Virus record (IMG/VR): IMGVR_UViG_3300029787_000071
Span: 1 to 53,025 of that record
Source of the DNA: a virus
Lineage: Duplodnaviria > Caudoviricetes
Direction: 5' to 3' (one strand)
Length of the DNA: 53,025 nt
How positions within the stretch are numbered: the first letter of the stretch is position 1; every line of letters starts with the position of its first letter. This document shows, one piece after another, positions 6,841-21,884 of the stretch. The position numbers were made by a program, and so were the translations under genes. Under the pieces are notes generated by a model. It did not search any database, was not told the DNA's origin, and saw only the letters and a list, made by a program, of their open reading frames with translations.

Positions 6841-6907
6841 GCGGGGCCTCAGTGGGGTAGCCGCAGTTGGGTTAGTCTAGCAGGGCCGCTAGTTAGCGGG
6901 TGGCTGC
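6841..6907 (-). promoter_or_regulatory. Tandem RNA stem-loop motif abutting the scaffold RBS
   Basis: Two copies of GCRG-CYAC-CC-loop-GG-CC-CYGC (6880-6907 and 6841-6864). Confidence 0.6.
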
Positions 6908-8361
6908 GTCTGTGTCCGCAATCTTGGATCTTGATCGGGACTTTCTGCCATAAAGCTTCTATTAACGCTTTCTGGCGAAACTCTAATATTGTCTGTCTGT
7001 GCTTCCTGCGCTGGGGGGGCTTCCTCTAACGCAAGGGGTGTTCTTCCTTCGGGTGGGCTGTTAGGGAGCCTTGGTCGAAGTTTGTAAAATATGTGTTCAA
7101 ACTTAGTCTTTGGAACTTTATCAAATGTTGTTTGCTCATACTGGTCGCTATTAGCAATATTATCTCTAAACCATGAACTAGTTGAAGTTTGAGGATTCCA
7201 GAAATAGGTAGAGCCATCTGTTAAATCTTTTAGTTTACCTTCCCTTGCAGATTTAACTAAATCTCTAGCAATCTTTAACTGTTTTTCATCTAATTTTTTA
7301 TTTTTTTGAGATTTAAAACCATTAAATTGCACGGGATTTAGATTATCTTCTAGCTTCGTAACCTTTTTTCCTTTGTCATCTCTAAAATTAGGATCGGCCA
7401 TTCTATTAAACATTACGTTCAATACTTTTTGCAGAGCCTCTTTACTTTTAAAAACTCCTGCTTCAGCAACTAAAGTTCTAGATATTTCTTCATCTCTATT
7501 TTTTAATTTTTTTTTACCCGGCGGGTATCCAGTTGCAGCCCTTACAGGAACTTCCTGCTTTTGCTGGGGCTGTTGCTCTTGCTCCTCTAGCTTCTTCTCT
7601 GTCTCTGCTTTGCCGCTATTATTTATCTTTTCAAGCAGGTCCGTGCCTATGACTTCGGCTAGCTCTGGCGGTATGTGATACTCTTTGTTTGAAGCAAGTA
7701 TCTTCTGATCTCCGTTTACCTGTTGTGCAGGTTTAGTGATAGCGGCCTTGTCTATCTCTATACCGTCTTTCTCTTTCAGGTATTCGATAGCAGGTTCAAT
7801 GATACGTTCTTCAAAGTCTTTTCTACCAACCTTTGCAAGAGCGGCTGCATTTATGATAAACGCGCCTTCTCTTACATTCATGGGTACATCATCAGCTACA
7901 CCTGTCTGATCTTCTGCACCCGGTTGATCAATCATACCTGCCACCTGATCACCCATTGCTAGCTGTTGCATCTGTTCTCGCATCGGGCTGGCTACAGGTA
8001 ATGATGGTACTTTTACAGGTGGTTGGTCTTCAGTGGCAGTAGCCTGTCCAACATTAGTCATAGGGTCAGAGAGATCAGGATCGGGATCGGGGTCAGGATC
8101 GGTGCGGTTTTCAAACTCCTGCATCTCTTGAATATTTCTTTCTCTTGGAGATAAACGCCCCATACCACCAGCTTCTTCTAAGTCATCAGGAGAATCCATC
8201 GGTCCTTGGTTTTCACCTGTAGACAGAGTAACACCTAAGCTCATGGCAAACGCTTGCAGCGCAGAAGGTTCGTTGTTTTCAATAATCTGTACAACCTGTG
8301 CCTGCGCCTCTTGCGACATCTGTTGCATCTTAGCTGTAAACTGGTCTTGTGTTATTTCCAT
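6889..8361 (-). CDS. Virion-associated protein with SleB-like cell-wall hydrolase (lytic transglycosylase) domain
   Basis: RTLVAEAG..VLNVMFNR..QFNG..DLTDGSTYFWNP..HIFY matches the Hydrolase_2/SleB pattern (about 7080-7500). An upstream ADDVP..EGAFIINAAA domain is also present. Confidence 0.75.
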   Translation of the reverse strand: MEITQDQFTAKMQQMSQEAQAQVVQIIENNEPSALQAFAMSLGVTLSTGENQGPMDSPDDLEEAGGMGRLSPRERNIQEMQEFENRTDPDPDPDPDLSDPMTNVGQATATEDQPPVKVPSLPVASPMREQMQQLAMGDQVAGMIDQPGAEDQTGVADDVPMNVREGAFIINAAALAKVGRKDFEERIIEPAIEYLKEKDGIEIDKAAITKPAQQVNGDQKILASNKEYHIPPELAEVIGTDLLEKINNSGKAETEKKLEEQEQQPQQKQEVPVRAATGYPPGKKKLKNRDEEISRTLVAEAGVFKSKEALQKVLNVMFNRMADPNFRDDKGKKVTKLEDNLNPVQFNGFKSQKNKKLDEKQLKIARDLVKSAREGKLKDLTDGSTYFWNPQTSTSSWFRDNIANSDQYEQTTFDKVPKTKFEHIFYKLRPRLPNSPPEGRTPLALEEAPPAQEAQTDNIRVSPESVNRSFMAESPDQDPRLRTQTQPPAN

Positions 8362-8363
8362 AA

Positions 8364-10898
8364 TTATTTAGCCTTAAATTTTTCACAAACGGTTAGCATC
8401 AATCCTGTTAAGAAAAACTGAGCCGTCCTTCTATAGTAGTTGACAGAGTATCGCCAACCGCTTTTTAGGCCACGACCATAGGACACAAAGTCTTTAAACT
8501 CTTGGTAATGGTTTTCTGCCTCGCCTCGTTTAATCGCCTTTTTACCAGCGTGTCTGTAGCCTTTTCTAAACAATTCACCGTACCATTTACCGTGATACTT
8601 ACGAGCGCACCAAACTTCTGCTTTTGCTTTGTCTCGCGCTGAGAAGCTTTTAGCTGCAACTGCATGTGTCGCTATTACACAAGTGCCGCTATCAGGACCA
8701 GCACCCGTGTCGCTTTCATCTAATTCACCCTCACCAAAATCAATGTCTGGTGCATCCATCGCTGCCGCTGCACCAGCACCCTCGTATCCCGGCGCATCCG
8801 TGCCGCCTGTGCCTATGCTGCCAGCCTTGTCACCATATCCGAAATCTTCTTCAGTTCCGCCAGAAAAAGAAGCACCGGCCATGCTCTTTGCAACTAGGTC
8901 AGCCACCCTTTTCTGTTCTGGATCATTAGGGTCCATCGTATTCTTACCCGTTATTGACATAGTTTGTTCAGCAATATCTATGCTCAAGTTAGACGGGTTT
9001 TGGCTATTGTAACCTCCTGCACCATAACTAAAGGAGTTCGTTGCCGCAGCGGATGCTGCATCTGATAATGCTTGTTGCTGCGCAGCAGTAAAGCCTTTTG
9101 CACGCTCTAAATCGGTCGTCGCAAACGCTATATCAGTTAAAGGTTCATCTTTAAGACCGGCTAATTCCAGCTCACTGGCCGCATAAGCAGCCATGCCTGC
9201 TCTAGAAAGACCCATTGCTGATAATTCATCTACTCCCATAGTTGATAAGTCTTGCAGTTGACTTGCAAAAGAAGCGGATAGAGTTGCGGGTGCTGTGCTA
9301 ACTTCTAATCCGGTCATCCCTCGATCTGCAAGACTACCAAAGTCTATATCAAGGCCCTGTACTCCAGCTTGATCAGCCACGCTATTGTAAGCATCCACAA
9401 AACCTAAGCTTGCAGTCATAGCCTCTTGATTCATAGCTTCAGCAATCTGGCCTAGATCATCAGTATCCAAACCTCTGCTACTTGCATAGTTCTTAAGTGT
9501 AGATTGTATTGCTGCATTGGCAATGTCTATATCTTCAAAGTCAAGATAGGCTTGAACAACTGCAGCTTGATTTATATCCTCAATGCTTATGTTATTTGTT
9601 GTTATTCCTTTACCCGCAACTTGATCAGCTAAGGCATTCATATCAAATTGCAGATTGCCAATAGCGCCGGGTACTTCTGAAAAATCTAAATCAATCGCAG
9701 TCACGTTGGTTTGATCACTAGGGTCTGCAAAGCCTGTCATTCCTGCTGAAGAGGCTGTAGGCCCACTGAAAGAAACTCCCGCAGTGCTAAAGGCGTTTGC
9801 CATACCAACGGCTCTATCGCTAACCGCCTCATTGTAACCGAGTTTATCTAAGGCAAATTGAGATACATTATAAAAAGCTTTTATGGGAGCGGGCATCAGT
9901 GCTTCTACAAAACCCGGAGTTACTAACTGCCCTGTGTTTTTATCGAAGTTAAAACCTACCGTGCCGCTTGGCAGGTTAAAGGTAAACACTTGAGGGTCTA
10001 AAGTGCCAAACTCCATCTGCCTCCCATAAGCTTCTAGAGTCTGATCAGGGTTCGTTATTGCAGTAACGATTCCTTCAATATACTCTCCAACATTTTTAGT
10101 TGCTTGACTAATTAAACCGCTTACAGTTACATTTCTATTAGCAAGATCGGCTACGTTTGCAGCCTGTTGTCCAAGCGAAAGGGCGGTAGAGGTTGCACTG
10201 AGTGCGCTAGGAATATCAGTTATTTCTGTATTTAGTGCGTCTTTCACACTATTGAAACCTCCAAATACACCTGCAACACCTGTACTTGATAACGCTCCTG
10301 AAGCTACATTACTAGCCAAACCGCTGAAACCAGCGCCCGGACCAAAGGCTCCAAAAGCGCCTCCAACAAGACCAGCAGCCAGCCCCGGATTAGTGAGATC
10401 AGATATATCTTGAGCTTCTGTACTTGTCGCTGTATCAAGACCGATATCTCCAGCATCATCGCCTGATGTAACACTAGGAGGCCCAAAGACCTGTTCAAAC
10501 TGTTGTTGTGGCTGTGGCCTATCCTGAAATTGTGACGTAAAGGTAGCAAGATCACTGGCAACTGTGGACGCCTCTCCTAAGATGCTACTAAAGGTATTTG
10601 AGTCAAACTCATTAATACGGCTAGCCGCAGCTTCTTTAAAAGCATCCACGCTGCTAGGATCAGAGAAGTTTACTTCGTCAAGAAGATCACCAAACAAATC
10701 CTCAACAGCTAACTGTGATGTAGAAGCTGTAGCTACAGATAGATCATCCTTTCGACGCTTGACCCCCAGCCCCTCAATATCAAGAGACTGAGAACCACCG
10801 CCTACGTCAATGGTAGCTTCAGGAATAGCTTCCATAGTCACAGGTTTAGCGGATACCGCTCCTGCTCCTTGAAGTGCTTCTGCTATGTTAGTCGCCAC
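8364..10898 (-). CDS. Large acidic Gly/Ala-rich virion protein with basic C-terminal CVIAT domain
   Basis: 844 aa between portal and scaffold. The last ~105 aa start at GTCVIATH and are Lys/Arg/aromatic-rich. Confidence 0.7.
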   Translation of the reverse strand: MATNIAEALQGAGAVSAKPVTMEAIPEATIDVGGGSQSLDIEGLGVKRRKDDLSVATASTSQLAVEDLFGDLLDEVNFSDPSSVDAFKEAAASRINEFDSNTFSSILGEASTVASDLATFTSQFQDRPQPQQQFEQVFGPPSVTSGDDAGDIGLDTATSTEAQDISDLTNPGLAAGLVGGAFGAFGPGAGFSGLASNVASGALSSTGVAGVFGGFNSVKDALNTEITDIPSALSATSTALSLGQQAANVADLANRNVTVSGLISQATKNVGEYIEGIVTAITNPDQTLEAYGRQMEFGTLDPQVFTFNLPSGTVGFNFDKNTGQLVTPGFVEALMPAPIKAFYNVSQFALDKLGYNEAVSDRAVGMANAFSTAGVSFSGPTASSAGMTGFADPSDQTNVTAIDLDFSEVPGAIGNLQFDMNALADQVAGKGITTNNISIEDINQAAVVQAYLDFEDIDIANAAIQSTLKNYASSRGLDTDDLGQIAEAMNQEAMTASLGFVDAYNSVADQAGVQGLDIDFGSLADRGMTGLEVSTAPATLSASFASQLQDLSTMGVDELSAMGLSRAGMAAYAASELELAGLKDEPLTDIAFATTDLERAKGFTAAQQQALSDAASAAATNSFSYGAGGYNSQNPSNLSIDIAEQTMSITGKNTMDPNDPEQKRVADLVAKSMAGASFSGGTEEDFGYGDKAGSIGTGGTDAPGYEGAGAAAAMDAPDIDFGEGELDESDTGAGPDSGTCVIATHAVAAKSFSARDKAKAEVWCARKYHGKWYGELFRKGYRHAGKKAIKRGEAENHYQEFKDFVSYGRGLKSGWRYSVNYYRRTAQFFLTGLMLTVCEKFKAK

Positions 10899-13266: not shown

Positions 13267-14586
13267 TTAATCTAAGTATAAAAATCCTCTGGGGCCTTTT
13301 AGACGGTCAGAGACTTGTTGTTTTTCCATAGCGGAAAAAGCTTCTTCATCAGCACTTCTTAATTCTTCGTAATCGGGTCCAGCCCTTTTTCGTGCTTCAA
13401 AACCTTCCATTGTAGCATCAGCCACCGGAGTTGCTGCGGCTAATTCATCAATAACCGTTAATCCAAGACCAACACCGGGAATCAACGCTTTAGCTGTTCC
13501 TCTACCACCCTTTTTGATAATGCCCAGTATGCTTTTAGTTCTCTCAGACATCGGCTTCGGCTCATCAGAGGGAAGTGGTCTGGGCTGTGGTTTCTCTTGT
13601 TCTTCAGGAGGTGAAATAAACTTAGCTGTTCTTTCTTGTATTGTTGGTGTTTCAGGAATAGCAGGTCTGGCTTCTCGTCGCGCAGCCGCCTTTCTCTGCC
13701 TGTCCTGCATCTCAATCTGAGGAGTGATTTTTGTTTGAACATATATAGGAAGAGATACTTTTTTAGCTTCCTCTATACCTTTATCAGAAATAACAAGGTT
13801 ATGAGGACGCACTCTACTTTTATCCTCAATAATTTTTCCATTCTTGTCCCTACCCGCTATAACAGGAACACCGCCTTTTTCTTTTATGGCAAATATTTCT
13901 TTGCCCCGTCTAGAGCGTCTATTCTGACCACCTTCAGAAAGGGTGCCAAGCTCTGCATCTAACTTTTTAAAAGTAAATAAATTCTTTTCATCTTTACCTG
14001 TAGGGGGGTCATCATCTTTAAGAAGACCGCTCTCGTACATGTACTGTTCATATGCTCTAAATTCATCAAGCTGTTTAGTAATACTTTCTATACCATCAGG
14101 AAAAGCTTCGTTAATATACCTATTTAAATCTCCTGCTCTATCCCTATTTGTTTTTCTAAAAGCATTAAAACGGTTTGTTAGTTCTGTAATTGATCCTCTT
14201 ACATTCTTTCCCGTCTCCTGCATCATCTTTAATACAAGATTAACCCCATCATCAGTTATATTAATGGGGGTTTTAATAGCTACCCTTCCTGATTTAGCTT
14301 TAGGTGAACCAGTTACGTTAGGTGTTAATTGTTTTCCCGGCTCTACACCAGCCTTTATCTCTGCAGCGGTGGCGCGCCTTTTAGGTAGCATATCCTCAAG
14401 ACTAAGGTCTTCAAAACTTTCTATTCCTGCTTTTTGTGCTGCCGCTTGAAAGTCCAAAGCAATATTAGTGGTAAATTTCCCTCTGTATTTTTTTTGTAAA
14501 CTCTCAAAATCATCTGCATTTAAAGAAGACCTATTCTGAGCTTTTATCTCTTCAATTACTGTTCTAATAGCATCTGCTTTTTTCAT
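13267..14586 (-). CDS. Hypothetical protein
   Basis: 439-aa ORF between terL and portal; no motif recognised. Confidence 0.7.
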   Translation of the reverse strand: MKKADAIRTVIEEIKAQNRSSLNADDFESLQKKYRGKFTTNIALDFQAAAQKAGIESFEDLSLEDMLPKRRATAAEIKAGVEPGKQLTPNVTGSPKAKSGRVAIKTPINITDDGVNLVLKMMQETGKNVRGSITELTNRFNAFRKTNRDRAGDLNRYINEAFPDGIESITKQLDEFRAYEQYMYESGLLKDDDPPTGKDEKNLFTFKKLDAELGTLSEGGQNRRSRRGKEIFAIKEKGGVPVIAGRDKNGKIIEDKSRVRPHNLVISDKGIEEAKKVSLPIYVQTKITPQIEMQDRQRKAAARREARPAIPETPTIQERTAKFISPPEEQEKPQPRPLPSDEPKPMSERTKSILGIIKKGGRGTAKALIPGVGLGLTVIDELAAATPVADATMEGFEARKRAGPDYEELRSADEEAFSAMEKQQVSDRLKGPRGFLYLD

Positions 14587-14588
14587 GC

Positions 14589-16361
14589 TTAGTAACCAAA
14601 CGTAGAGTCAAACGGTTTTGGCTTTGCCTCTTGCATCTTGTTCATCATTGAGTTGATGGTTAGATGTCCTCTTGCGCGTGTCATGCACATGTATCGCAAA
14701 GCGTCGTAGGCGTGGTCATCTGCTTTTGTATCTACATCTTCAGGGTTTGTCTTTGACAGTGGTAGCCCTGAGAGAGTACGTATCAGATGTGTGCAGGTTG
14801 AAAGTATCTTTATTCTTGGTTGTTGTGTAAACTCGTCTACCTGCAAACGCCTGTGTAGTTCTAGTTTACCTGCAATCCTGTTTCTATCTGATGGAGTAAA
14901 TCTAGCTCCACAACGAATGAGAGTTTCAGCGATTGAAGGTCCGGTGCCTGTCCTGTTCCAACAGGAAGAGTCAAGCACCGAGTAGTACATGCCGGGATCA
15001 CCTCCCTCAAGATTTACAATGATATTGGCTAGAGTTTCTGCAGTCTGTCCTTTGCCGTAGAACTCCCTGTAAATCCAAAGGGTATCATCCCAATCAACTG
15101 CGCCCCACAGGACACAAGAGGGGGCGGCATACCCGTAGTCTGCTGCACGAAGGCGTAACCAACCTTGGGGTATCTGTGCCTGTGAGGCTTCCACAACATG
15201 AATGCTGCGGGAAAACTCTGGGAACGCCGCTCCCTCTGCGACATCCCAATCCCCTTCTAGAAGCCGCCTTCGTTCGACTTCTGGGAGCGACCTCAACATG
15301 GCTTCATATTCACCAGTTTCAGCGAGGTAGGGGTTATCAGTCAGACGCGCCGGAATGAATTTACGAAGAAACAGCGGCTGACCTGCTTTACCGTTAGTTG
15401 CTGTCTCAGGCCACAAAAGAGCGTTACCTGTATCAACATCGGTAGCTGCAAACGGTGTGTTAGGCGGTGCAGGGTCAATGTACATCTTCTTGACCCACCA
15501 ACCACCTACCCCTCCGGGGTTTCCTGTGCAGCGCATATATGCGTCAATCTGCGGGTCCGTTGTACGAAGTCTGGAGCGCAGATACTCCCACACGTAGGGA
15601 GTTGGGTAGTGCGTTATCTCGTCAATACCAATCCAAGTAAAAGCCTGACCTTGGTAGCGTGTTACGTCCTTGTCTTTGTCGAGGTAGGAGAACCATGCCG
15701 TAGCCCCAGACGGGAACTGCCACATAGCCTTGGACTCTCTGAATACGGCACCGGGAAAAGCTTTTGGATAGAGTTGTTTGCTTTTATCAACCAGTTCTGT
15801 AAGCTCGTCCAAAGTACGACGAATAATAAGAGCGCGATGATTGGGGTTGCTACAGTAGCGAAGCAGATCAGCAAGAAGAGCATAAGACTTGCCCCCGCCA
15901 GCAGCGCCGCCATAAAAAACATCCCTTTCAGGGCTTGCCAAAAAGTCAGTCTGCGGCCCCGAGTTTGGTTTGAAGATAACCTCTGCTTCATCCTCTACTA
16001 ACTCCCTTACGGGTTTTGGTACATTCTGTAGTGTGGTATCTTCAATGACCTTAGCACCGTTCTTGTTGAACAAAGCCTGTTCAACTTTCTTGATGCTGTC
16101 TTTCTTCTCTTTGGCCTTAGATGCTTTCTTCTGTGCTTTCTTCTTTGCCCTGTCCGCGTTGCGAACCGCAGCGGCAGAGGCCCGTCTCGCTCTTTCTTTT
16201 GCAGAGAGACGGTAGTTACCCTTTTCGCCCTCGGCTAATTTGGGACGGCCACGCTTGCGCTTGACAGGCTCTTCTCTTACGTCAGCTTTATCAACCAAAG
16301 GCAGGTGACTTTCGCTTGACGTTTTTCTTGTGCCTTCGCTCTGGTGATCTAAATCGTCCAA
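14589..16361 (-). CDS. terL: Terminase large subunit
   Basis: Walker A YGGAAGGGKS, Walker B IGIDE, coupling motif TGNPGG, nuclease DYGY and DDHAYDALRY. Start uncertain (TTG at 16361 or 16298). Confidence 0.95.
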   Translation of the reverse strand: MDDLDHQSEGTRKTSSESHLPLVDKADVREEPVKRKRGRPKLAEGEKGNYRLSAKERARRASAAAVRNADRAKKKAQKKASKAKEKKDSIKKVEQALFNKNGAKVIEDTTLQNVPKPVRELVEDEAEVIFKPNSGPQTDFLASPERDVFYGGAAGGGKSYALLADLLRYCSNPNHRALIIRRTLDELTELVDKSKQLYPKAFPGAVFRESKAMWQFPSGATAWFSYLDKDKDVTRYQGQAFTWIGIDEITHYPTPYVWEYLRSRLRTTDPQIDAYMRCTGNPGGVGGWWVKKMYIDPAPPNTPFAATDVDTGNALLWPETATNGKAGQPLFLRKFIPARLTDNPYLAETGEYEAMLRSLPEVERRRLLEGDWDVAEGAAFPEFSRSIHVVEASQAQIPQGWLRLRAADYGYAAPSCVLWGAVDWDDTLWIYREFYGKGQTAETLANIIVNLEGGDPGMYYSVLDSSCWNRTGTGPSIAETLIRCGARFTPSDRNRIAGKLELHRRLQVDEFTQQPRIKILSTCTHLIRTLSGLPLSKTNPEDVDTKADDHAYDALRYMCMTRARGHLTINSMMNKMQEAKPKPFDSTFGY

Positions 16362-16425
16362 GAGTTTTACCTTTGTGAAATACTATTTTACTATTGCCGC
16401 TTGTTTTCTTTTTCTTTGTTGCCAT
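16291..16425 (-). CDS. 44-aa highly basic peptide (not in ORF track)
   Basis: TAATG-coupled start; MATKKKKTSGNSKIVFHKGKTLGRFRSPERRHKKNVKRKSPAFG. Confidence 0.6.
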   Translation of the reverse strand: MATKKKKTSGNSKIVFHKGKTLGRFRSPERRHKKNVKRKSPAFG

Positions 16426-17006
16426 TACTTTAACTTTGGTTTACGAACCCCACCGCCTTTTGCGTATGGTTTTACTTTGCCTCCCTTTGCAAACTTTAAT
16501 CTTACATTTCCTCCAATATAGCTTTCACCACTTTCCGGGTCGTACCTGCCTTGAATACCCGCTGTTCCTTTTACTCTTCCAAAATCAACAGGTCTTTCAT
16601 ATCTCGCCCCTACAGCGGGCGGTCTGCGCTGTGCTTCCTCAAGCCCCATACCCTTAAAATCGAGATTCAGATTTAGTCCCTCTGGTAGCTGGCGATTAAC
16701 AAACTTCTCGCCCTGACGGGCAATCTCTTTTACCGCATCTCTGGACGCCTTGTCCTTCAACGCTCTGGCAGAGTACTTCTCAGGATTAAGAAAGTAATCT
16801 GCAGCTATATAAGCAGCCCCCATAGCACCTTTTGCTAGCTGCTCTCTGCTTACATCTTTTTCTACATCAGGGTTAGTAATACCAATGTCCCGTGAACGAG
16901 CGGTAAAAGCCGTCTCTTGTGCTCTCTCAGACTGATCAATCTGATACTTTAAACCATCTCTGATAACGGTGACAGCCTGCTTTAGTTGTTGTTTTTGGCT
17001 AGCCAT
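16425..17006 (-). CDS. Hypothetical protein with C-terminal FAKGG/YAKGGGVRKP tags
   Basis: 193-aa ORF ending KFAKGGKVKPYAKGGGVRKPKLK. Confidence 0.75.
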   Translation of the reverse strand: MASQKQQLKQAVTVIRDGLKYQIDQSERAQETAFTARSRDIGITNPDVEKDVSREQLAKGAMGAAYIAADYFLNPEKYSARALKDKASRDAVKEIARQGEKFVNRQLPEGLNLNLDFKGMGLEEAQRRPPAVGARYERPVDFGRVKGTAGIQGRYDPESGESYIGGNVRLKFAKGGKVKPYAKGGGVRKPKLK

Positions 17007-17187
17007 TTTGAATTATGTTATCCTCCATAACTAATCCACGGTCAATTGCAAAAGCGCGTGTCATAAAATCTTCTGTAAGTTTTATCTCAGTGCTTTTGTA
17101 AAACTTGCCCTTACCACGAATGTAGCAGGGATAGCTCAAGGGTTTTCTGGTTCGCGATAGTGTGACTTCTACATAAATTTTATTCAT
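16999..17187 (-). CDS. Hypothetical protein
   Basis: 62-aa ORF overlapping both neighbours by 8 nt. Confidence 0.55.
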   Translation of the reverse strand: MNKIYVEVTLSRTRKPLSYPCYIRGKGKFYKSTEIKLTEDFMTRAFAIDRGLVMEDNIIQNG

Positions 17188-17605
17188 GGTCTATGATAAC
17201 AGGGTCCACTTGCCCTGATTTCGCCGGAAGAAGAACCACTCCGTGTATAGCAGTAACATTATGTTCAACCTTATCATGCTTACCCACGCCTACTCTGTTT
17301 AAAATAGATTCTGCTGCTTTAATACGCTGTTCAGCGCGTGGGGTTGTTCCGTCATCGTCCAGTGCATTTACCAGACCTGCCGCTGCTTTTACTGAGTTAG
17401 CGGCTAACATGTTCTTTGCTCTCTCTACAATCTCATCGGCTAGAGAGTTCATAACTGCTTTACCAGTGGTTTCACAGTAGCCTGCTGCGCGTAAAGCTGC
17501 AGCGTTGTTACCACCATTATCCATGAGTGCATCAAGATACGCAAGCTGTTTTTCTGTTAGCTGGCGTTTTTTATTTTTAGTGGGTAAAAGACCTTCCTGT
17601 GCCAT
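17180..17605 (-). CDS. terS: Terminase small subunit
   Basis: LTEKQLAYLDAL..NNAAALRAAGY HTH-like start, AAESILNRVG and C-terminal GVVLLP; lies upstream of terL. Confidence 0.8.
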   Translation of the reverse strand: MAQEGLLPTKNKKRQLTEKQLAYLDALMDNGGNNAAALRAAGYCETTGKAVMNSLADEIVERAKNMLAANSVKAAAGLVNALDDDGTTPRAEQRIKAAESILNRVGVGKHDKVEHNVTAIHGVVLLPAKSGQVDPVIIDHE

Positions 17606-18090
17606 CAATAACGTACTTTACGTACTCCTCCACCCATTGCGTATTCTTTTTTAAACCCTTTAATCCCTGCAACAATGCCGCCCTCTTTCATACCAGCAAC
17701 TTTATTGCGATTCATCTCCATCAGGCTCTGCTGCGGATTTTGCTGCATGGTTCCTGCACCCATAATCTTATTTTTATCCGGTGTGCCGGTCTGAGCCATG
17801 CCTCCCATGTACATTTTCTTTTTCACTGACTTCTTCCTCTTCATCGTGGCGACATTCGTTGGCTTACCGCCGACACCTTGCGGCTTGGCTCTTTTACGAG
17901 CAACGGCGCTCTTTCTTTCTCCCGCTGTCATGGACTTGGCTTTGGAGCGCGGCACACACTTAGGGTAGGCACGTTTAGACTTAGACGCAGACTTTCGACC
18001 ACAAGCCTGAAACTTGCCATCTTTCTTGGGTGCGCCAATGTCTACCCAATCCCCCTTGGGGCCTTTGCCGAACCACTCCTTGAGGCTCAT
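17605..18090 (-). CDS. Basic protein (WVDI..CGR..YPKC domain) with xxGG tags
   Basis: True start is probably ATG 18090 (MSLKEWFG, TAATG-coupled). Carries MYMGG, MKEGG and a terminal YAMGGGVRKV. Confidence 0.75.
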   Translation of the reverse strand: MSLKEWFGKGPKGDWVDIGAPKKDGKFQACGRKSASKSKRAYPKCVPRSKAKSMTAGERKSAVARKRAKPQGVGGKPTNVATMKRKKSVKKKMYMGGMAQTGTPDKNKIMGAGTMQQNPQQSLMEMNRNKVAGMKEGGIVAGIKGFKKEYAMGGGVRKVRY

Positions 18091-18269
18091 TAGTAAGTCC
18101 CGCCTCGTTTCTTGTACGTGCGGACTAACCAAGCGTTTGCATACGCGCTGGGGTAGACTTTGAACTTACGTTTAGCCTCTGCCTTCACTCTTGCGTACAG
18201 AGCTTTATTCTTAGGCGTAGGAGACTTGCTACTTTTTTTTGCCTTTGGCTTTGCTTTTTTTGCTGGCAT
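18090..18269 (-). CDS. 59-aa basic protein, DUF5872-like (not in ORF track)
   Basis: MPAKKAKPKAKKSSKSPTPKNKALYARVKAEAKRKFKVYPSAYANAWLVRTYKKRGGTY. The SAY..LV..YKKRGG.Y pattern is recalled from viral DUF5872-like proteins. Confidence 0.7.
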   Translation of the reverse strand: MPAKKAKPKAKKSSKSPTPKNKALYARVKAEAKRKFKVYPSAYANAWLVRTYKKRGGTY

Positions 18270-18555
18270 TGCGTATCGCCTCTTTTCCTTTTTTAGCTAT
18301 TGAAACAACCTGTGTCTTACCCATGACCTTTGCACGTTGTTCCATTACAGTTAGTATCTGTATCTTTCTTGCAAAAGGTTTATTTACTCTTTTTACCTTT
18401 GCAACAGTCGCTCTTGCTTCTGCAGGAGTAGCAAACTTTATACTAACAGTATCCTTGGGGTTCTCATCAGTGTAAAGTCTTCGATCAGAACCTTTTGGCT
18501 TTTTGCCTGTTCCTTTTTTTGGATCAGGTTTTCTTTTTGCCACTTTTCTGCTCAA
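18229..18555 (-). CDS. Basic hypothetical protein
   Basis: 108 aa Lys-rich protein with RRLYTDENPKDTVSIKFAT core. Confidence 0.7.
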   Translation of the reverse strand: MSRKVAKRKPDPKKGTGKKPKGSDRRLYTDENPKDTVSIKFATPAEARATVAKVKRVNKPFARKIQILTVMEQRAKVMGKTQVVSIAKKGKEAIRNASKKSKAKGKKK

Positions 18556-18889
18556 GGATTTTTACAAGCTTAGGAGGCAGGTTTTTCCTCTGCGCTGCGG
18601 TTACGGGTCCACCCTTTGCCATCATTCTCATGCCACGCGCCATCATATCTGTGTCACGGGCGCTCATGCCCATTCCACGCGCCATTCCGCCACGGGCCAT
18701 GCCCTTGCTTTTCTTCATGGCACCACCTTTAGCCATGCCTTTTGTGGTCTTGCCACCTTTAGCCATGTACTTGGAGGTCTTACCACCTTTAGCCATGCCT
18801 TTGCTTTTTTTCATAGCACCGCCTCTAGCCATGCCCTTAGTGGTCTTGCCACCTTTAGCCATGTATTTAGTCTTCTTCTTAGCAGCCAT
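18524..18889 (-). CDS. Lys/Met/Gly-rich repeat protein (7 x MA[KR]GG)
   Basis: 121 aa made almost entirely of KGMAKGG-type repeats; RBS AAAGGA upstream. Confidence 0.75.
   Translation of the reverse strand: MAAKKKTKYMAKGGKTTKGMARGGAMKKSKGMAKGGKTSKYMAKGGKTTKGMAKGGAMKKSKGMARGGMARGMGMSARDTDMMARGMRMMAKGGPVTAAQRKNLPPKLVKILEQKSGKKKT
18690..18870. repeat. Coding tandem repeat (CCACCTTTAGCCAT units; 96-nt higher-order period)
   Basis: CCACCTTTAGCCAT recurs four times, plus variants. The 32-aa unit KYMAKGGKTTKGMA[RK]GGAMKKSKGMA[KR]GG.. is duplicated. Confidence 0.85.
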
Positions 18890-18894
18890 TGGTT

Positions 18895-19554
18895 CTAATC
18901 CTTTGCGTATAAGTTATCAAATGTAATGCTGGGGTCCATGTAGCTATCATTAATCTCTGCACTGTGTGTGTGTTGGCTAGGCACAAAGTCTGGTGGACCT
19001 TCACCTGTAACCCACAAAGCAGGATTTGTAACCCGTACCCTGTTGTTGGGGAGAGCAACTATATTTCCTGTAAACTCTCCTGCGTCTATTAGCTCTAGCA
19101 CATGAGATTGTTTGTGCTGCGCTGGGTCGTCTGAAATGTGACTGTCGGTGTAGTCCACAGTGAACATATACCGACCTGTATAAAACTCTCCCCCTATCTT
19201 ACACATCCAAGGGCTAGACGATACTCTGTCCATGCTAAAGACTGCGTGGTTTCTGGAGGAGCAGTCCCAAGGTTGTGCAAAGTGAGTGGGCATCTTTTGC
19301 GGCCACTCTTCAAGAATACTATCAGCGACTAATGCTGTGATGGGCATTCTAGCCCACATAGCTCCACCGTGAATATTCTCTTCTTCTTCACAGCCAGTAA
19401 ACACTACGTTAAAACTAAGACATCTGTCCGGTATTGTATTTACTGCTATTGCTAGTGCATGAAGGTACTCTCCCTCATACTCTACGTGATTATGTGTAAA
19501 CTCTTTACGCACCCAACACTTAAAGTGTGGGATATTAGAGGCTAAGTAAGCCAT
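18895..19554 (-). CDS. Conserved phage hypothetical protein
   Basis: 219 aa globular-looking protein (GGAMWARMPI, QPWDC, YMFTVD, HKQSHVL, ALPNNR); function unknown. Confidence 0.75.
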   Translation of the reverse strand: MAYLASNIPHFKCWVRKEFTHNHVEYEGEYLHALAIAVNTIPDRCLSFNVVFTGCEEEENIHGGAMWARMPITALVADSILEEWPQKMPTHFAQPWDCSSRNHAVFSMDRVSSSPWMCKIGGEFYTGRYMFTVDYTDSHISDDPAQHKQSHVLELIDAGEFTGNIVALPNNRVRVTNPALWVTGEGPPDFVPSQHTHSAEINDSYMDPSITFDNLYAKD

Positions 19555-19576
19555 AATACTCTCTACTAAGGTTGGG

Positions 19577-19978
19577 CTAGCACTTCCATCTTTTTCTAGC
19601 CTGACGCAGACGGCTATTTGGATCTCTAGCCGCCTTGGGAAACTTCTTCATCTGTCCTGCAGAGCGAGCGCAGAAGGACTTACGTCTCTTCGCGTCTTTG
19701 CTACCGGGTTCAACCTTGCCAGTAACAGCGCCCTTTAGTTTAGAGCCGGGGTTAGCCTTGCGATATGCTTTAATGCCCTTCTCGGTCATGCCAGCGCCCT
19801 TCTTAGTGGGTCGCTTCATTCCCTTACCTTTGGGCATTACATCAGGCTTCCTGACTCCTCCTCCCTTTGCGTACTCCTTACGGCTAATCGCTGCCACCTT
19901 CTCTGACTGCCGCTTGTGCAGCTTGGAGGCTTTGTTTAGCTGTTGTGAGACTTCCCTTAGTTCTTCCTTTGCGGACAT
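19577..19978 (-). CDS. Basic protein, DUF6321-like, with YAKGGGVRKP tag
   Basis: RRKSFCARSAGQ..DPNSRLRQARKRWKC C-terminus; internal KEYAKGGGVRKP. Confidence 0.75.
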   Translation of the reverse strand: MSAKEELREVSQQLNKASKLHKRQSEKVAAISRKEYAKGGGVRKPDVMPKGKGMKRPTKKGAGMTEKGIKAYRKANPGSKLKGAVTGKVEPGSKDAKRRKSFCARSAGQMKKFPKAARDPNSRLRQARKRWKC

Positions 19979-19979
19979 T

Positions 19980-20195
19980 TTACTTTTTCACATTTCGAGG
20001 TGGATTAGAATACTGTTTTTGTACGCTTTCTCTAAACTTTTTTATCCCTGCGCTATCCTCAGACGGAGAGGTTCCGCTCTTTACAGGTTTTGGTTTACCA
20101 TCGCTGCCCAACAGACCAAATGTAACATTATAAAGGGCCTTCATACGGGCCTTATGTTGGGCGGTTCCACTAATAGAAAGCTTTTTAGTAGCCAT
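19980..20195 (-). CDS. Small basic hypothetical protein
   Basis: 71-aa ORF tightly packed in the operon. Confidence 0.6.
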   Translation of the reverse strand: MATKKLSISGTAQHKARMKALYNVTFGLLGSDGKPKPVKSGTSPSEDSAGIKKFRESVQKQYSNPPRNVKK

Positions 20196-20196
20196 T

Positions 20197-20733
20197 TTAC
20201 TTCATCCTCGGTTTACGAATAGGTCCACCCATTCTACGGTTCATGGCATATACCTTGCCACCACCAGCTTTCTTTTGACTCTTATAAGCAGCGGCTCCTC
20301 TTCCAAGCTGAATGGCTTTGTCTGTAGCTTCTTTTAGCTCTTTGCTGCCCCCATAGGGTTTTCCCTCTTGAGAGGGTTCAGGATTTATCATGTTATCCAT
20401 GATAGATGCTACAGCACCACTAAAGCTTTTTTTAGCGGCTGCAATCTTTTCAGCCGTTAGCGGCGGTCTTGCTCTAGAACCAACGCGCTTTCCAACAGCA
20501 GCATCTGCTTGCGCTCTATCCATACCAGCTTTGGCCGCGCTTACTTTTGAGTTAAACCGCTTCTGCATCATACGCATCGCTTTTCTGCGCTGGGCGTTAG
20601 TAGCCCCTTCTTTTTTAGCAGACGCATCAAACTCTTTTAAAAGTGCACCCGGACTTCTACGCCCTTCAACTACTTTTTCTAACGCTTCGTCTAAATCTCT
20701 ATTTGTAATTTCAATTTTTCCAAATTTAGCCAT
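20197..20733 (-). CDS. Basic hypothetical protein with C-terminal xxGG tags
   Basis: 178 aa ending KKAGGGKVYAMNRRMGGPIRKPRMK; RBS GGAGG. Confidence 0.72.
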   Translation of the reverse strand: MAKFGKIEITNRDLDEALEKVVEGRRSPGALLKEFDASAKKEGATNAQRRKAMRMMQKRFNSKVSAAKAGMDRAQADAAVGKRVGSRARPPLTAEKIAAAKKSFSGAVASIMDNMINPEPSQEGKPYGGSKELKEATDKAIQLGRGAAAYKSQKKAGGGKVYAMNRRMGGPIRKPRMK

Positions 20734-20927
20734 TACCCGTACCTCCCTTGTTTTTTGTACATCTGCTTACAATGGCAATCTCCACAGTCACAATGAAGAC
20801 ATGGCTCTGGGCAATGACACTCCTGCGGTTGACATACGCATGTGATGCACTGATCATCTTCTTTTTGTTTTTCTGGCGTGTGTTGAATCATGTAGAACGC
20901 CGCGTATGGTCCTTGATATGCAGACAT
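20733..20927 (-). CDS. Small Cys/His-rich, metallothionein-like protein
   Basis: 10 Cys and 3 His in 27 residues (CITCVCQPQECHCPEPCLHCDCGDCHC). Confidence 0.55.
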   Translation of the reverse strand: MSAYQGPYAAFYMIQHTPEKQKEDDQCITCVCQPQECHCPEPCLHCDCGDCHCKQMYKKQGRYG

Positions 20928-21040: not shown

Positions 21041-21068
21041 ATTATAACGTCTATATAGGACTTGTCAA
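21041..21068 (-). promoter_or_regulatory. Consensus sigma70 promoter driving the morphogenesis arm
   Basis: TTGACA-N16-TATAAT on the minus strand. Confidence 0.8.
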
Positions 21069-21109: not shown

Positions 21110-21137
21110 TTGACAGATTGGAAATGGGCTGTATAAT
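21110..21137 (+). promoter_or_regulatory. Consensus sigma70 promoter for the oxygenase gene
   Basis: TTGACA-N16-TATAAT on the plus strand, back to back with the minus-strand promoter. Confidence 0.8.
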
Positions 21138-21242: not shown

Positions 21243-21884
21243 ATGAATATGGATAGTGCGCCTGAAGAAGTTGCAGAAGTTACAAGGCCGTGGTCCCTAT
21301 CCTCGTATACGTTTAACAGTTTCGCTCAGTATATTCAATATTTTAATCCTGATGAGTGTGAACAGTACATCCGTGATGCTCAAAAGGGTTTAAGAACTAC
21401 GTCATTTAAAAAAGGTGAGGTTGGTAGCCCAGAGGCTAACGCTAGTTTTGAATTAAGAAACTCCGATGTGTGTTTTTTCAAAACACATAAATCTGAAAAT
21501 AACCCCCTATTCTCAAAATTAACAGAAGTTCTGATAAATGCTAACCAATCCTTCTTTGGATATGACATTTTTGAGATAGAGGCTGCACAATTTTCTACAT
21601 ATTCTTCTGAATATAAAGGGTTTTATAATAAACATGTTGATATTATGCCTAATTCTTCTGGAATAGGCGTTAGAAAATTAAGTTTTAGTGTACAATTAAG
21701 CGACCCAGACTCGTACAAGGGCGGTGACCTTCTTTTACATACTACTAATAAACCCACTCAAGCTCCAAAAGAGATTGGAAGTGTAACTATATTTCCCAGC
21801 TTTACACTTCACGAGGTTACACCTGTAACAGAAGGTGTACGGTACTCATTAGTCGGCTGGGTAACAGGTCCAGCGTGGAAATAG
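21243..21884 (+). CDS. 2OG-Fe(II) oxygenase (prolyl 4-hydroxylase/PKHD-like)
   Basis: YNKHVD, RKLSFSVQLSDPDSYKGGDL and FPSFTLHEVTPVTEGVRYSLVGW. Confidence 0.92.
   Translation: MNMDSAPEEVAEVTRPWSLSSYTFNSFAQYIQYFNPDECEQYIRDAQKGLRTTSFKKGEVGSPEANASFELRNSDVCFFKTHKSENNPLFSKLTEVLINANQSFFGYDIFEIEAAQFSTYSSEYKGFYNKHVDIMPNSSGIGVRKLSFSVQLSDPDSYKGGDLLLHTTNKPTQAPKEIGSVTIFPSFTLHEVTPVTEGVRYSLVGWVTGPAWK

What the first reader, a model, noticed from the sequence alone, without database searches (positions are those of the whole stretch)
16291..20927. Family of small basic proteins sharing an AxGG(GVRK) tag: candidate capsid cargo-addressing / DNA-condensing system
Seen: between the leftward promoter and terL lie about ten small, very Lys/Arg-rich ORFs. 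Five otherwise unrelated ones carry the same short motif: FAKGG and YAKGGGVRKP (16425-17006); MYMGG, MKEGG and YAMGGGVRKV (17605-18090); seven MA[KR]GG copies (18524-18889); YAKGGGVRKP (19577-19978); KAGGGKV and RRMGGPIRKP (20197-20733). The codons differ between the GVRK copies, so the peptide rather than the DNA is conserved, and it is often at the extreme C-terminus. Inference: this is a portable tag, either a prohead-targeting or ejection signal (by analogy with the T4 internal-protein capsid targeting sequence), a protease site, or a modification site. It would load several basic cargo proteins into the head. I know of no functional description of such a system in this phage group.
Basis: partly seen in the sequence, partly recalled or inferred. 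Interest (0 to 1): 0.85.

Follow-up and report, generated by a model that had tools for sequence, protein, structure and literature searches.

The report
Shared C-terminal tag on phage proteins
A group of uncultured marine phages attaches the same roughly 20-residue glycine- and lysine-rich tail to dozens of otherwise unrelated small basic proteins encoded beside their DNA-packaging genes, which looks like an address label, but what reads it is still unknown.

Summary
The window is a complete 53-kb HMO-2011-type marine podophage. The core GGx[VI]RK[PV] occurs 4 times in its six-frame translation. All four lie in genes between the leftward promoter and terL (0.04 expected; 0 of 5000 shuffles reach 4).

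The full motif is a two-part tail of about 20 residues: [FA]KGGx[VI]Kx-YAKGGGVRK[PV]xx.
- Exact YAKGGGVRKP is encoded in 79 IMG/VR contigs by 33 different nucleotide versions, and in 0 of 185,579 prokaryote genomes.
- A profile search of 1.84 billion proteins found 88 clusters. In 86 the tail ends 2-7 residues before the stop. Their bodies form 58 unrelated groups.
- In one carrier family the body drifts to about 30% identity while the tail stays invariant.
- AlphaFold2 predicts the tail to be disordered.

Every contig long enough to judge is HMO-2011-type, and the tagged genes sit in late or structural operons, mostly within 2.4 kb of terS.

One carrier domain, DUF6321, lies between terS and terL in T4-like cyanophages. 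That protein was detected in purified S-CREM2 virions.

Best reading (about 0.35): an uncleaved head-incorporation tag for a fast-changing set of basic cargo proteins. No receptor was found, and direct DNA binding, an enzyme site or a host target remain open.

The parts
16425..17006 (-). 193-aa basic protein (pI 9.9), tagged. The 22-residue tail FAKGGKVKPYAKGGGVRKPKLK is encoded at 16428-16493.
   Evidence: Family alignment A7: the body falls to 30-33% identity while 16 tail columns stay invariant. AF2: tail residues 174-193 have pLDDT below 50. No Pfam or PHROG hit.
17605..18132 (-). 175-aa (161 aa from the ATG at 18090) basic protein. N-terminal phrog_23735 domain, then MYMGG and MKEGG, then the C-terminal tag EYAMGGGVRKVRY encoded at 17608-17646. 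It ends at the start of terS.
   Evidence: (phrog_23735, E 5.5e-21, residues 16-101). Orthologues in 40 of 80 sources. CRP-2 has the same domain without a tag.
18524..18889 (-). 121-aa protein made of 7 MA[KR]GG units (pI 11.5, 18% Gly).
   Evidence: tblastn matches to this locus in 21 loci, scored through the antisense ORF that my gene caller picked. HMO-2011 has an unannotated 50-aa ORF with 3 MMRGGM-like units.
19577..19978 (-). 133-aa protein: N-terminal helix, internal tag YAKGGGVRKP (encoded at 19844-19873), then a C-terminal DUF6321 domain.
   Evidence: Pfam PF19846, 48 bits against a cut-off of 28.5. AF2 mean pLDDT 72.8, helix 3-38, residues 34-42 below 50, domain helical. No PDB fold match.
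20197..20733 (-). 178-aa basic protein with a variant two-part tag, KAGGGKVYAMNRRMGGPIRKPRMK, encoded at 20200-20271.
   Evidence: The same variant tail sits on three body groups that BLAST does not link (6, 6 and 4 members).
18090..18269 (-). 59-aa basic protein with a DUF5872 domain; no tag.
   Evidence: Pfam PF19197, 37.1 bits against a cut-off of 27.5. The same module is fused with DUF6321 in the cyanophage S-MS29 protein.
18229..18555 (-). 108-aa basic protein (pI 11.1); no tag.
   Evidence: Only a weak PHROG hit.
18895..19554 (-). 219-aa acidic protein (pI 5.1) inside the cluster. Matches phrog_3704, which is labelled 'ferredoxin'. No tag.
   Evidence: (E 5.7e-30). Absent from G001, G002, G003 and G005.
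17180..17608 (-). Small terminase subunit (terS), flanked by tagged genes.
   Evidence: phrog_51 and phrog_641 terS hits; Pfam Terminase_2 falls below its cut-off. Homologues in 60 loci.
14589..16361 (-). Large terminase subunit (terL) with a basic N-terminal extension of about 125 residues.
16291..16425 (-). 44-aa very basic ORF (36% K+R); no tag.
   Evidence: No family hit.
16999..17187 (-). 62-aa ORF between terS and the 193-aa gene.
   Evidence: Homologues in 29 loci.
19980..20195 (-). 71-aa basic ORF; no tag.
20733..20927 (-). 64-aa Cys-rich ORF, the first gene of the leftward operon.
21041..21068 (-). Promoter-like site with 12 of 12 matches to the sigma-70 consensus, upstream of the cluster. 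A second 12 of 12 site faces the other way at 21110-21137.
   Evidence: These are consensus matches only.
21243..21884 (+). 2OG-Fe(II) oxygenase of the prolyl-4-hydroxylase type, transcribed away from the cluster.
   Evidence: PF13640, E 1.2e-14.

Best explanation
The tail of about 20 residues ([FA]KGGx[VI]Kx-YAKGGGVRK[PV]xx) is a portable, uncleaved short linear motif in a disordered C-terminal tail. It works as an address label.

Proposed mechanism: it docks a fast-changing set of small basic proteins, made from the head and packaging operon, onto one conserved partner inside the assembling head. That partner would be the scaffold or the inner face of the coat shell, or possibly the portal. 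The cargo proteins would then be carried in the virion beside the DNA and released into the cell at infection. This is the same logic as the T4 internal proteins with their targeting sequence, or encapsulin cargo-loading peptides.

Shown here: the tag is portable, is under very strong selection at the peptide level, sits at the C-terminus, is predicted to be disordered, is confined to one phage lineage, lies in late operons, and rides on a cargo set that turns over quickly.

Inferred, not shown: that the tag binds a head component, that tagged proteins are in the virion, and that they are ejected.
For: 1. One signal on many bodies.
- 172 tagged ORFs in 80 sources fall into 30 groups that BLAST does not link.
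- 88 clusters (at 50% identity) out of 1.84 billion proteins carry the tag. Their bodies form 58 unrelated groups.
- 58 of the 80 sources have 2-4 tagged genes.

2. The constraint is on the peptide and exceeds that on the cargo.
- 33 nucleotide versions encode the same 10 residues, with every synonymous position varying.
- In the 193-aa family the body falls to 30-33% identity while 16 tail columns stay invariant.
- The tag core is identical between sublineages whose coat proteins are about 55% identical and whose terL proteins are about 60% identical.

3. Position. The core ends 2-7 residues before the C-terminus in 86 of 88 clusters and 2-6 residues before it in 136 of 172 ORFs. The other 36 ORFs are the DUF6321 type.

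4. Disorder, as expected of a docking motif. pLDDT is below 50 at the tag in both AF2 models.

5. Lineage restriction points to a co-inherited partner.
- 75 of 87 IMG/VR tag loci, and 16 of 16 metagenome loci of at least 4 kb, carry homologues of this phage's HMO-2011-type genes.
- The exact pattern gave 0 matches in 185,579 prokaryote genomes.

6. Late or structural context.
- All 150 tags in loci that have a terS lie on the terS strand, at a median of 774 nt and a maximum of 2425 nt from it.
- In a second sublineage the tagged genes follow scaffold, coat and a 160-aa gene, with or without an oxygenase gene, or follow the tail module.

7. Cargo turnover resembles the T4 internal proteins. Relatives with terL 94%, 88% and 79% identical share only about 6, 6 and 2 of the 13 region genes. 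A T4 review describes the internal proteins as highly diverse, with only a conserved targeting sequence (passage).

8. Experimental anchor for one carrier domain. In cyanophage S-CREM2 the DUF6321 protein ORF137 lies between terS and terL. Both ORF137 and its neighbour ORF136 were detected in CsCl-purified virions, with 4 unique peptides (4.1% coverage) and 8 unique peptides (24.1%) respectively (Table 3 of PMC10665884).
Against: - No protein with the strict tag has been examined in any virion. No cultured phage with the strict tag turned up: tblastn of the 193-aa protein and of its tail against 50,697 phage records found nothing, though BLAST's low-complexity filter may hide the tail. The tag profile gave 1 weak hit in 5 cultured phages.
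- S-CREM2 ORF137 is a distant relative and lacks the strict tag. It rests on only 4 peptides, and purified virion preparations can carry contaminants.
- The terS-terL gap is a known hot-spot for accessory genes in cyanophages (passage of PMC3037559). Linkage to the terminase genes may therefore reflect insertion tolerance rather than function.
- No receptor was identified. The only window genes with homologues in all four fetched tag-bearing contigs but none in HMO-2011 or CRP-2 were the 490-aa, 355-aa, 96-aa and 75-aa ORFs. The 159-aa ORF was found in 3 of the 4, the fourth contig breaking at that spot. That comparison has little power. The cultured phage HTVC033P has a homologue of the 159-aa gene and also 2OG oxygenases, yet no tag in the 31.5 kb examined.
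- A shorter form of the motif ([FYLM]x[KR]GG) sits at a fixed distance upstream of DUF6321 in 27 of 54 homologues that lack the full tag. DUF6321 occurs in myoviruses and in unrelated podoviruses. The motif's partner may therefore not be a lineage-specific capsid surface.
Confidence: 0.35

Rival explanations
1. The tail is itself a nucleic-acid-binding arm: a glycine-rich, basic, flexible peptide of the AT-hook, RGG-box or histone-tail kind. It would make any protein that carries it stick to DNA or RNA. The proteins would then coat or condense phage DNA around the time of packaging, or act on the host nucleoid, with no protein receptor needed.
For: - All carriers are basic (pI 9.9-11.5).
- The tail is disordered and is built of repeated KGG units about 9-12 residues apart.
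- Arg and Lys of the core are invariant.
- The shorter motif occurs across phages with unrelated capsids, next to DUF6321.
- The same genome carries R-G-R-P strings in the terL extension and in the scaffold. That these are AT-hook-like is recalled, not tested.
Against: - Tyr, Ala, the Gly run and Val/Ile are as conserved as the basic residues, over about 10 consecutive positions and across 58 unrelated bodies. That is more stereospecific than charge-driven DNA binding usually needs.
- The tag lacks the R-G-R-P core of AT-hooks.
- Preference for the C-terminus in 86 of 88 clusters is not explained by DNA binding.
- The strict tag is confined to one phage lineage.
Confidence: 0.25
2. The tag is the recognition site of an enzyme. 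It would be a substrate motif for the phage's own 2OG-Fe(II) oxygenases (hydroxylation of Pro, Lys or Arg), or in this genome for its SET-domain lysine methyltransferase. Alternatively it is a cleavage site next to the Gly-Gly.
For: - A prolyl-4-hydroxylase-type oxygenase gene is transcribed away from the cluster, and the two promoter-like sites each match the consensus at 12 of 12 positions.
- A second oxygenase follows the coat gene.
- In 14 of 87 tag loci an oxygenase homologue is present, always within 2 kb of a tag. In the second sublineage it often directly precedes the tagged genes.
- PF13640 is present in 4 of 5 tag-bearing near-complete contigs.
- The window encodes a 105-aa SET-domain protein with GLGIFA, NHS and ELTLDY motifs.
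- The motif lies at module junctions in DUF6321 proteins.
Against: - The SET gene is absent from 5 of 5 other tag-bearing contigs, both by family and by protein search.
- The Pro of the tag is replaced by Val or Ala in many variants, so prolyl hydroxylation at that site cannot be general.
- Some tag-bearing contigs have tagged genes directly after the coat module with no oxygenase between (L087, L093).
- 2OG oxygenases are common in marine phages and also occur in tagless HTVC033P.
- No protease family was found among the 49 window proteins scanned.
- The residues after Gly-Gly are the most conserved, unlike a leaving peptide.
Confidence: 0.12
3. The tag is a short linear motif that binds a conserved host protein or structure, for example a ribosome, chaperone, protease or envelope component. 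It would give many phage effectors the same host address inside the infected cell, unrelated to the virion.
For: - Extreme conservation of a disordered 10-mer across varied proteins is typical of motifs that bind a slowly evolving partner.
- The cargo set turns over like accessory or host-takeover genes.
- The first operon promoter matches the host sigma-70 consensus.
Against: - The exact peptide pattern is absent from 185,579 prokaryote genomes, so it does not copy a host tail exactly.
- The genes lie in late or structural operons rather than early ones.
- Related phages without the strict tag (HMO-2011, CRP-2, HTVC033P) were isolated on hosts of three different groups, as their records state. 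The host of the tag-bearing lineage is unknown, so this could not be tested.
Confidence: 0.13
4. The tag is the detached N-terminal arm of the DUF6321 module. It would serve to dock tagged proteins onto DUF6321 proteins in trans. This would rebuild, from separate small genes, the multi-module protein that cyanophages encode as one chain.
For: - In DUF6321 proteins the motif sits directly in front of the domain, and forms grade from KGGD-VMP to KGGxVR[KR]P-VMP.
- The cyanophage S-MS29 protein fuses a phrog_23735-like module, DUF5872 and DUF6321 in one chain; the S-CAM7 protein ends in the same DUF6321 module. Both lie between terS and terL.
- PHROG families phrog_727 and phrog_3477 match both the 175-aa and the 133-aa proteins.
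- DUF6321 is present in 4 of 5 tag-bearing contigs.
Against: - The second sublineage carries tags, but no DUF6321 was found in its 89%-complete contig G005 or in its held loci.
- The AF2 monomer model shows no packing of the arm on the domain.
Confidence: 0.08

Closest known systems
Capsid targeting sequence (CTS) of the phage T4 internal proteins
   Same: A short conserved peptide is the only feature shared by a varied, fast-evolving set of small, mostly basic proteins (review passage). The genes lie in a variable region. The proposed result, cargo inside the head that is delivered with the DNA, is the same.
   Different: As I recall, the T4 CTS is N-terminal and is removed by the prohead protease. 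Here the tag is C-terminal, no protease family was found, and there is no sequence likeness. This phage has a separate scaffold protein. Encapsidation is not shown here.
Encapsulin cargo-loading (targeting) peptides
   Same: A short conserved peptide at the extreme C-terminus of unrelated cargo proteins, joined by a flexible linker. As I recall, it docks on the inner face of an HK97-fold shell.
   Different: The consensus is different: the encapsulin peptide as I recall it is not basic. The system is cellular, not viral. No binding to this phage's coat protein has been shown.
Phage T7 gp6.7 and gp7.3, small virion proteins ejected into the cell
   Same: Both are small proteins with basic, Gly-Gly-Lys-Lys-containing C-terminal parts: gp6.7 ends ...SAFGGKK, and gp7.3 contains ...ARAGGKK.... 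The record's notes call gp6.7 injected and gp7.3 needed for infectivity.
   Different: The likeness is 4-5 residues only. There is no homology and no evidence that those residues act as a signal in T7. This is an analogy, not membership.
Glycine-rich basic nucleic-acid-binding motifs (AT-hook, RGG box, histone tails)
   Same: Disordered, rich in Gly, Lys and Arg, repeated, and found on small basic proteins.
   Different: The tag lacks the AT-hook R-G-R-P core. Its non-basic residues (Tyr, Ala, Val) are equally fixed. A likeness to a histone tail is recalled from memory and was not tested.
Pfam DUF6321 and DUF5872, and the cyanophage terS-terL (g16-g17) hot-spot proteins
   Same: Two region proteins are members of these families. 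Cyanophage fusion proteins carrying the modules sit between terS and terL. One of them is reported in a virion proteome.
   Different: These families have no described function; a search for either name found 1 paper, which only lists a gene. The strict two-part tag is not part of either family model, and most DUF6321 proteins lack it.

Membership tests
T4-type capsid targeting sequence | N-terminal position of the signal (recalled) | tested here: not met
   The tag is C-terminal in 86 of 88 clusters and in 136 of 172 ORFs.
T4-type capsid targeting sequence | Removal by a prohead protease encoded by the phage (recalled) | tested here: not met
   No protease family among the 49 window proteins scanned against Pfam. 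A separate scaffold-like gene lies at 5993-6829. About 22 small ORFs were not scanned.
T4-type capsid targeting sequence | One conserved signal on otherwise varied cargo | tested here: met
   58 unrelated body groups among 88 clusters; 30 groups among 172 ORFs.
T4-type capsid targeting sequence | Cargo is found inside the head | not testable with these tools
   Only indirect evidence: a distant DUF6321 protein was detected in the S-CREM2 virion proteome.
Encapsulin cargo-loading peptide | Conserved peptide at the extreme C-terminus behind a flexible linker | tested here: met
Encapsulin cargo-loading peptide | Family consensus sequence (recalled) | tested here: not met
   The tag consensus is basic, with Tyr-Ala-Lys, a Gly run and Val-Arg-Lys. 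It does not resemble the recalled consensus.
Encapsulin cargo-loading peptide | Binds the inner face of the HK97-fold shell protein | not testable with these tools
   The single modelling attempt gave no verdict (see Tried and rejected).
AT-hook | R-G-R-P core flanked by basic residues (recalled) | tested here: not met
   The tag core is G-G-x-[VI]-R-K-[PV]. R-G-R-P strings do occur elsewhere, in the terL extension and the scaffold.
Pfam DUF6321 (PF19846) | Score above the curated cut-off | tested here: met
   The 133-aa protein scores 48 bits against 28.5, residues 61-131.
Pfam DUF5872 (PF19197) | Score above the curated cut-off | tested here: met
   The 59-aa protein scores 37.1 bits against 27.5. 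Only profile positions 1-38 of 116 are matched.
HMO-2011-type podophage | Homology of terL, portal, coat and replication genes to HMO-2011 and its relatives | tested here: met
   Against HMO-2011: terL 54%, portal 49%, coat 41%, ribonucleotide reductase 63% amino-acid identity. Nucleotide matches to CRP phages, HMO-2011 and HTVC115P.

The most novel reading that the evidence does not exclude
A lineage of abundant marine HMO-2011-type podophages has its own cargo-loading system. An uncleaved C-terminal peptide of about 20 residues is read by a conserved site in the procapsid. It loads an interchangeable, fast-evolving arsenal of small basic effector proteins into the head for co-injection. This would be a phage counterpart of encapsulin targeting peptides and a protease-independent analogue of the T4 internal-protein system. 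The same tag could be used to load foreign proteins into phage heads.
Probability: 0.3. Interest if true: 0.85.

Novelty: new variant of a known kind. Interest (0 to 1): 0.72.

Why it matters
If the tag is a head-loading signal, it would identify which proteins of a globally abundant, mostly uncultured phage group travel with the DNA into the cell. Such proteins are candidates for anti-defence or takeover effectors.

It would also show that cargo addressing by a short C-terminal peptide, known from encapsulins, is used by tailed phages that lack a prohead protease. And it would provide a compact tag for putting foreign proteins into capsids.

If the function turns out to be different, the tag is still useful. 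It is a very strongly constrained, virus-only short linear motif shared by at least 58 unrelated protein bodies. It links several domains of unknown function (DUF6321, DUF5872, phrog_23735) that occur in hundreds of cultured marine phages. That gives a concrete experimental handle on them.

Tried and rejected
1. DNA-level explanations (repeat, terminator, or ribosome-binding site for the next gene). Rejected. 33 nucleotide versions encode the same 10 residues, and the Gly codons vary among GGC, GGT, GGA and GGG. One copy is internal to a gene.

2. Chance in K/G-rich sequence. Rejected by within-protein shuffles.

3. Complex modelling of coat (alignment A3), scaffold (A4) and the 34-residue tail (A1). 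Score 0.00, below the mark. The tool's verdict was 'no answer', so this counts neither for nor against binding.

4. The SET methyltransferase as obligate partner. Rejected: absent from 5 of 5 other tag-bearing contigs and from 5 of 5 cultured phages tested.

5. The 159-aa post-coat protein or the 2OG oxygenase as tag-specific markers. Weakened: tagless HTVC033P has a 159-aa homologue and two oxygenases.

6. Receptor hunt by presence and absence across the 4 tag-bearing contigs fetched in full (G001, G002, G003, G005) and 2 phages without the strict tag. Too little power and confounded by divergence.

7. Cargo function. Pfam on 66 tagged proteins gave one member with a 3'-5' exonuclease / RNase H-like hit (E 1.2e-5), which I could not trace to a member, and one weak PX hit (E 0.0074). 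The other 64 had no hit.

8. Fold search of the DUF6321 model against the PDB. No match. The AF2 model of the 193-aa protein was too poor to search (mean pLDDT 48.9).

9. The protein atlas look-up of the 193-aa protein gave only unnamed viral clusters, scoring below 0.9.

10. Literature. Four motif strings gave 0 papers. DUF6321 or DUF5872 gave 1 paper, a gene list only. A search for HMO-2011 virion mass spectrometry gave nothing relevant. Supplementary tables could not be seen, for example Table S8 of PMC3037559 and the S-SCSM1 virion list. They may hold further virion detections of DUF6321 proteins.

Full report
**What the window is**

The window is a whole virus record of 53,025 bases, rated 100% complete by CheckV. 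Its terL matches Roseobacter CRP phages, Puniceispirillum phage HMO-2011 and pelagiphage HTVC115P at 63-67% nucleotide identity. Against HMO-2011, its terL, portal, coat and ribonucleotide reductase are 54%, 49%, 41% and 63% identical at the protein level. It is therefore an uncultured HMO-2011-type marine podophage.

On the minus strand, a promoter-like site matching the sigma-70 consensus at 12 of 12 positions (21041-21068) precedes 13 small genes (20927 down to 16291). After them come terL, a 439-aa ORF, the portal, two large ORFs, the scaffold, the coat and the tail genes. terS lies inside the small-gene block at 17180-17608.

**The observation**

| Measure (unless noted) | Observed | Expected from shuffles | Shuffles reaching it |
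|---|---|---|---|
| Core GGx[VI][RK]K, 13 region proteins | 4 | 0.04 | 0 of 5000 |
| Same, without the repeat protein | 6 | 0.27 | 0 of 5000 |

- In the six-frame translation of the whole window, GGx[VI]RK[PV] occurs four times, all in real ORFs of this block.
- Ten of the 13 ORFs are strongly basic.
- Codons differ between the copies.
- ORFs on the plus strand over this region are antisense artefacts of the K/G-rich coding. The family hits all fall on the minus-strand frames.

**What the motif really is**

I back-translated YAKGGGVRKP and scanned IMG/VR. This returned 79 contigs holding 96 copies. By information content (my own estimate, no tool control) chance would give well under one match.

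The copies fall into two classes:
- In the DUF6321 family the peptide lies 87-89 residues before the stop.
- In all other proteins it lies 2-6 residues before the stop.

Aligning the tails shows a two-part unit, [FA]KGGx[VI]Kx followed by YAKGGGVRK[PV] and 2-6 further residues. G-G and R-K are invariant, and Y-A is at least 90% conserved.

With a looser core, 172 tagged ORFs were found in 80 sources. Of these sources, 58 have 2-4 tagged genes. Once the tail is masked, the ORFs fall into 30 groups that BLAST does not link.

A profile of the tail was searched against 1.84 billion representative proteins. It found 88 clusters at E of at most 0.001.
- In 86 of them the core ends 2-7 residues from the C-terminus.
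- Their bodies form 58 unrelated groups.

Selection acts on the peptide:
- 33 distinct 30-nt versions encode the same ten residues, and every synonymous site varies.
- In the 193-aa family the body diverges to 30-33% identity while 16 tail columns are invariant.
- Each cargo family keeps its own tail ending (KLK, VRY, PRMK and so on). The tails are therefore old and inherited with their cargo, not homogenised within genomes.

The exact pattern is absent from one genome each of 185,579 prokaryote species. AlphaFold2 gives pLDDT below 50 for the tag in both contexts modelled. The tag is therefore a short linear motif in a disordered tail.

**Where it occurs**

- 75 of 87 IMG/VR tag loci carry a homologue of this phage's terL, terS, portal, coat or scaffold. 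Several of the other 12 are short pieces of HMO-2011-type contigs.
- In loci with a terS, all 150 tags lie on the terS strand, at a median of 774 nt and at most 2425 nt away. Of these, 98 are upstream and 52 downstream of the terS start. The loci are centred on tags, so very long distances could not have been seen.
- A second tail variant (...GGY[VI]KKYAKGGGVRKVR[STA]) marks a more distant sublineage, with terL about 60% and coat about 55% identical. There the tagged genes follow scaffold, coat and a 160-aa gene, often with a 2OG oxygenase, and precede terS. In other contigs they close the tail module.
- All 16 metagenome loci of at least 4 kb with this variant carry homologues of this phage's genes.
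- Each of 5 near-complete tag-bearing contigs has 2-4 profile matches within about 3 kb.
- No cultured phage with the strict tag was found. HMO-2011 itself has only looser forms: KKGGAVRK, three MMRGGM-like units, and a C-terminal NRGGMVKKRKK. None was seen in CRP-2 or in 31.5 kb of HTVC033P.

**The carriers**

Most carriers have no family. Of 66 tagged proteins scanned against Pfam, one had an exonuclease-like hit and one a weak PX hit (E 0.0074); the other 64 had none.

In the window, three modules are recognisable:
- phrog_23735, in the 175-aa protein;
- DUF5872, in the 59-aa protein, which has no tag;
- DUF6321, in the 133-aa protein.

DUF6321 is very common. It matched 441 cultured phage records, mostly cyanomyoviruses, cyanopodoviruses and pelagiphages, and at least 7995 protein clusters.

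In the T4-like cyanophage S-MS29 these modules are fused in one 426-aa protein. S-CAM7 has a 372-aa and S-CREM2 a 490-aa protein that end in the same DUF6321 module. All three lie between terS and terL.

In DUF6321 proteins that lack the full tag, a short form, [FYLM]x[KR]GG, is present in 27 of 54 against 0.8 expected. It usually lies 16 residues before my domain anchor. Intermediate forms lead up to the full tag.

**Experimental anchor**

Table 3 of PMC10665884 (seen as passages) lists the virion proteome of CsCl-purified S-CREM2. It includes:
- ORF137 (108049-109521; 4 unique peptides, 4.1% coverage);
- ORF136 (107301-108014; 8 unique peptides, 24.1% coverage).

The phage record shows that ORF137 is the DUF6321 protein and that both genes lie between terS and terL.

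This is the only experimental evidence that a carrier module is associated with virions. It concerns a distant phage and a protein without the strict tag. The same gap is a known hot-spot for accessory genes in cyanophages (PMC3037559, passage), so position alone is weak evidence of function.

**Mechanism**

The pattern most closely resembles the T4 internal proteins. That pattern is one invariant, disordered, terminal peptide on many unrelated, basic, fast-turning-over small proteins, encoded in the head and packaging operon of a single phage lineage. A review describes the T4 proteins as highly diverse, with only a conserved targeting sequence that brings them into the scaffolding core (PMC3012670, passage). 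The position of the signal resembles encapsulin cargo-loading peptides.

Cargo turnover is fast. Relatives with terL 94%, 88% and 79% identical share about 6, 6 and 2 of the 13 block genes.

I therefore favour an uncleaved head-incorporation tag, at confidence about 0.35.

Against this reading:
- No receptor was found.
- The single modelling attempt gave no verdict.
- The short motif also occurs next to DUF6321 in phages with unrelated capsids.

The rivals, and why each ranks lower:
- Direct nucleic-acid binding (0.25). It fits the charge, the repeats and the wide spread of the short form. It does not explain the fixed Tyr-Ala and Val or the C-terminal preference.
- An enzyme site (0.12). An oxygenase is transcribed divergently from the cluster or lies adjacent to tagged genes, and this genome has a SET-domain protein. 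However, the SET gene is absent from 5 of 5 other tag-bearing contigs, and the Pro of the tag is dispensable.
- A motif that binds a host target (0.13).
- Docking in trans onto DUF6321 (0.08). This is weakened by the second sublineage, where no DUF6321 was found.

**Novelty**

The motif strings returned no paper from about 8.4 million full texts. The two DUF names returned one gene list.

The feature is real, widespread and apparently undescribed. Its function is inferred, not shown.

Noticed in passing
window 37120-37437 (+): A 105-aa minimal SET-domain protein (PF00856, 29 bits against a cut-off of 22.4). It has GLGIFA, FLNHS and ELTLDY motifs, and its weak best PDB matches are histone lysine methyltransferases (KMT2D, KMT5A). 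It lies after the ribonucleotide reductase gene. It is absent from 5 related contigs and from 5 cultured phages tested. A lysine methyltransferase in a phage full of Lys-rich proteins is notable, but it is not linked to the tag.
   Followed up: yes
window 14589-16361 (-) N-terminal ~125 residues; 5993-6829 (-): terL carries a long charged N-terminal extension containing a KRKRGRPK string. The scaffold-like protein has a very acidic N-terminus and a KKPRGRPSKK string. Both strings look like AT-hooks (recalled, not tested).
   Followed up: no
window 21041-21068 (-) and 21110-21137 (+): Two promoter-like sites that each match the sigma-70 consensus at 12 of 12 positions and face away from each other. 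One points at the tagged-gene operon, the other at the 2OG-Fe(II) oxygenase gene (21243-21884).
   Followed up: partly
window 3788-4423 (-) and 4501-4980 (-): A block of coat gene, 159-aa gene and 2OG oxygenase is conserved in both tag-bearing sublineages (oxygenase about 54% identical). tblastn did not find it in HMO-2011 or CRP-2. HTVC033P and CRP-345 have distant homologues of the 159-aa gene.
   Followed up: partly
window 20733-20927 (-): A 64-aa ORF with 12 Cys in runs of CxC and CxxC, resembling a metal-binding protein. It is the first gene after the leftward promoter. No family hit.
   Followed up: no
window 18895-19554 (-): An acidic 219-aa protein (phrog_3704, labelled 'ferredoxin', E 5.7e-30) sits in the middle of the basic-protein block. 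It is 99% identical in 16 loci but absent from four related near-complete contigs.
   Followed up: partly
L085 2113-3393 (S-MS29), L086 2254-3372 (S-CAM7), L097 1253-2725 (S-CREM2): T4-like cyanophages encode multi-module proteins between terS and terL. The S-MS29 one holds a phrog_23735-like module, small CW...C modules, DUF5872 and DUF6321. The next small gene in S-CAM7 ends in ...YLKGGKKTYD.
   Followed up: partly
L001 15694-15846 (-) and near record position 24465 (-) of HMO-2011: HMO-2011 has an unannotated 50-aa ORF with three MMRGGM-like units. It also has MAKGGMIRKMQTGG upstream of about 650 further residues in a large open frame of the structural region, close to where the window's 469-aa protein (47170-48579) matches.
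   Followed up: no
window 13267-14586 (-), 6889-8361 (-), 8364-10898 (-): Three large ORFs of the head module (439, 490 and 844 aa) have no Pfam or PHROG family. The 490-aa ORF has homologues in all four tag-bearing contigs fetched in full, but tblastn found none in HMO-2011 or CRP-2.
   Followed up: partly
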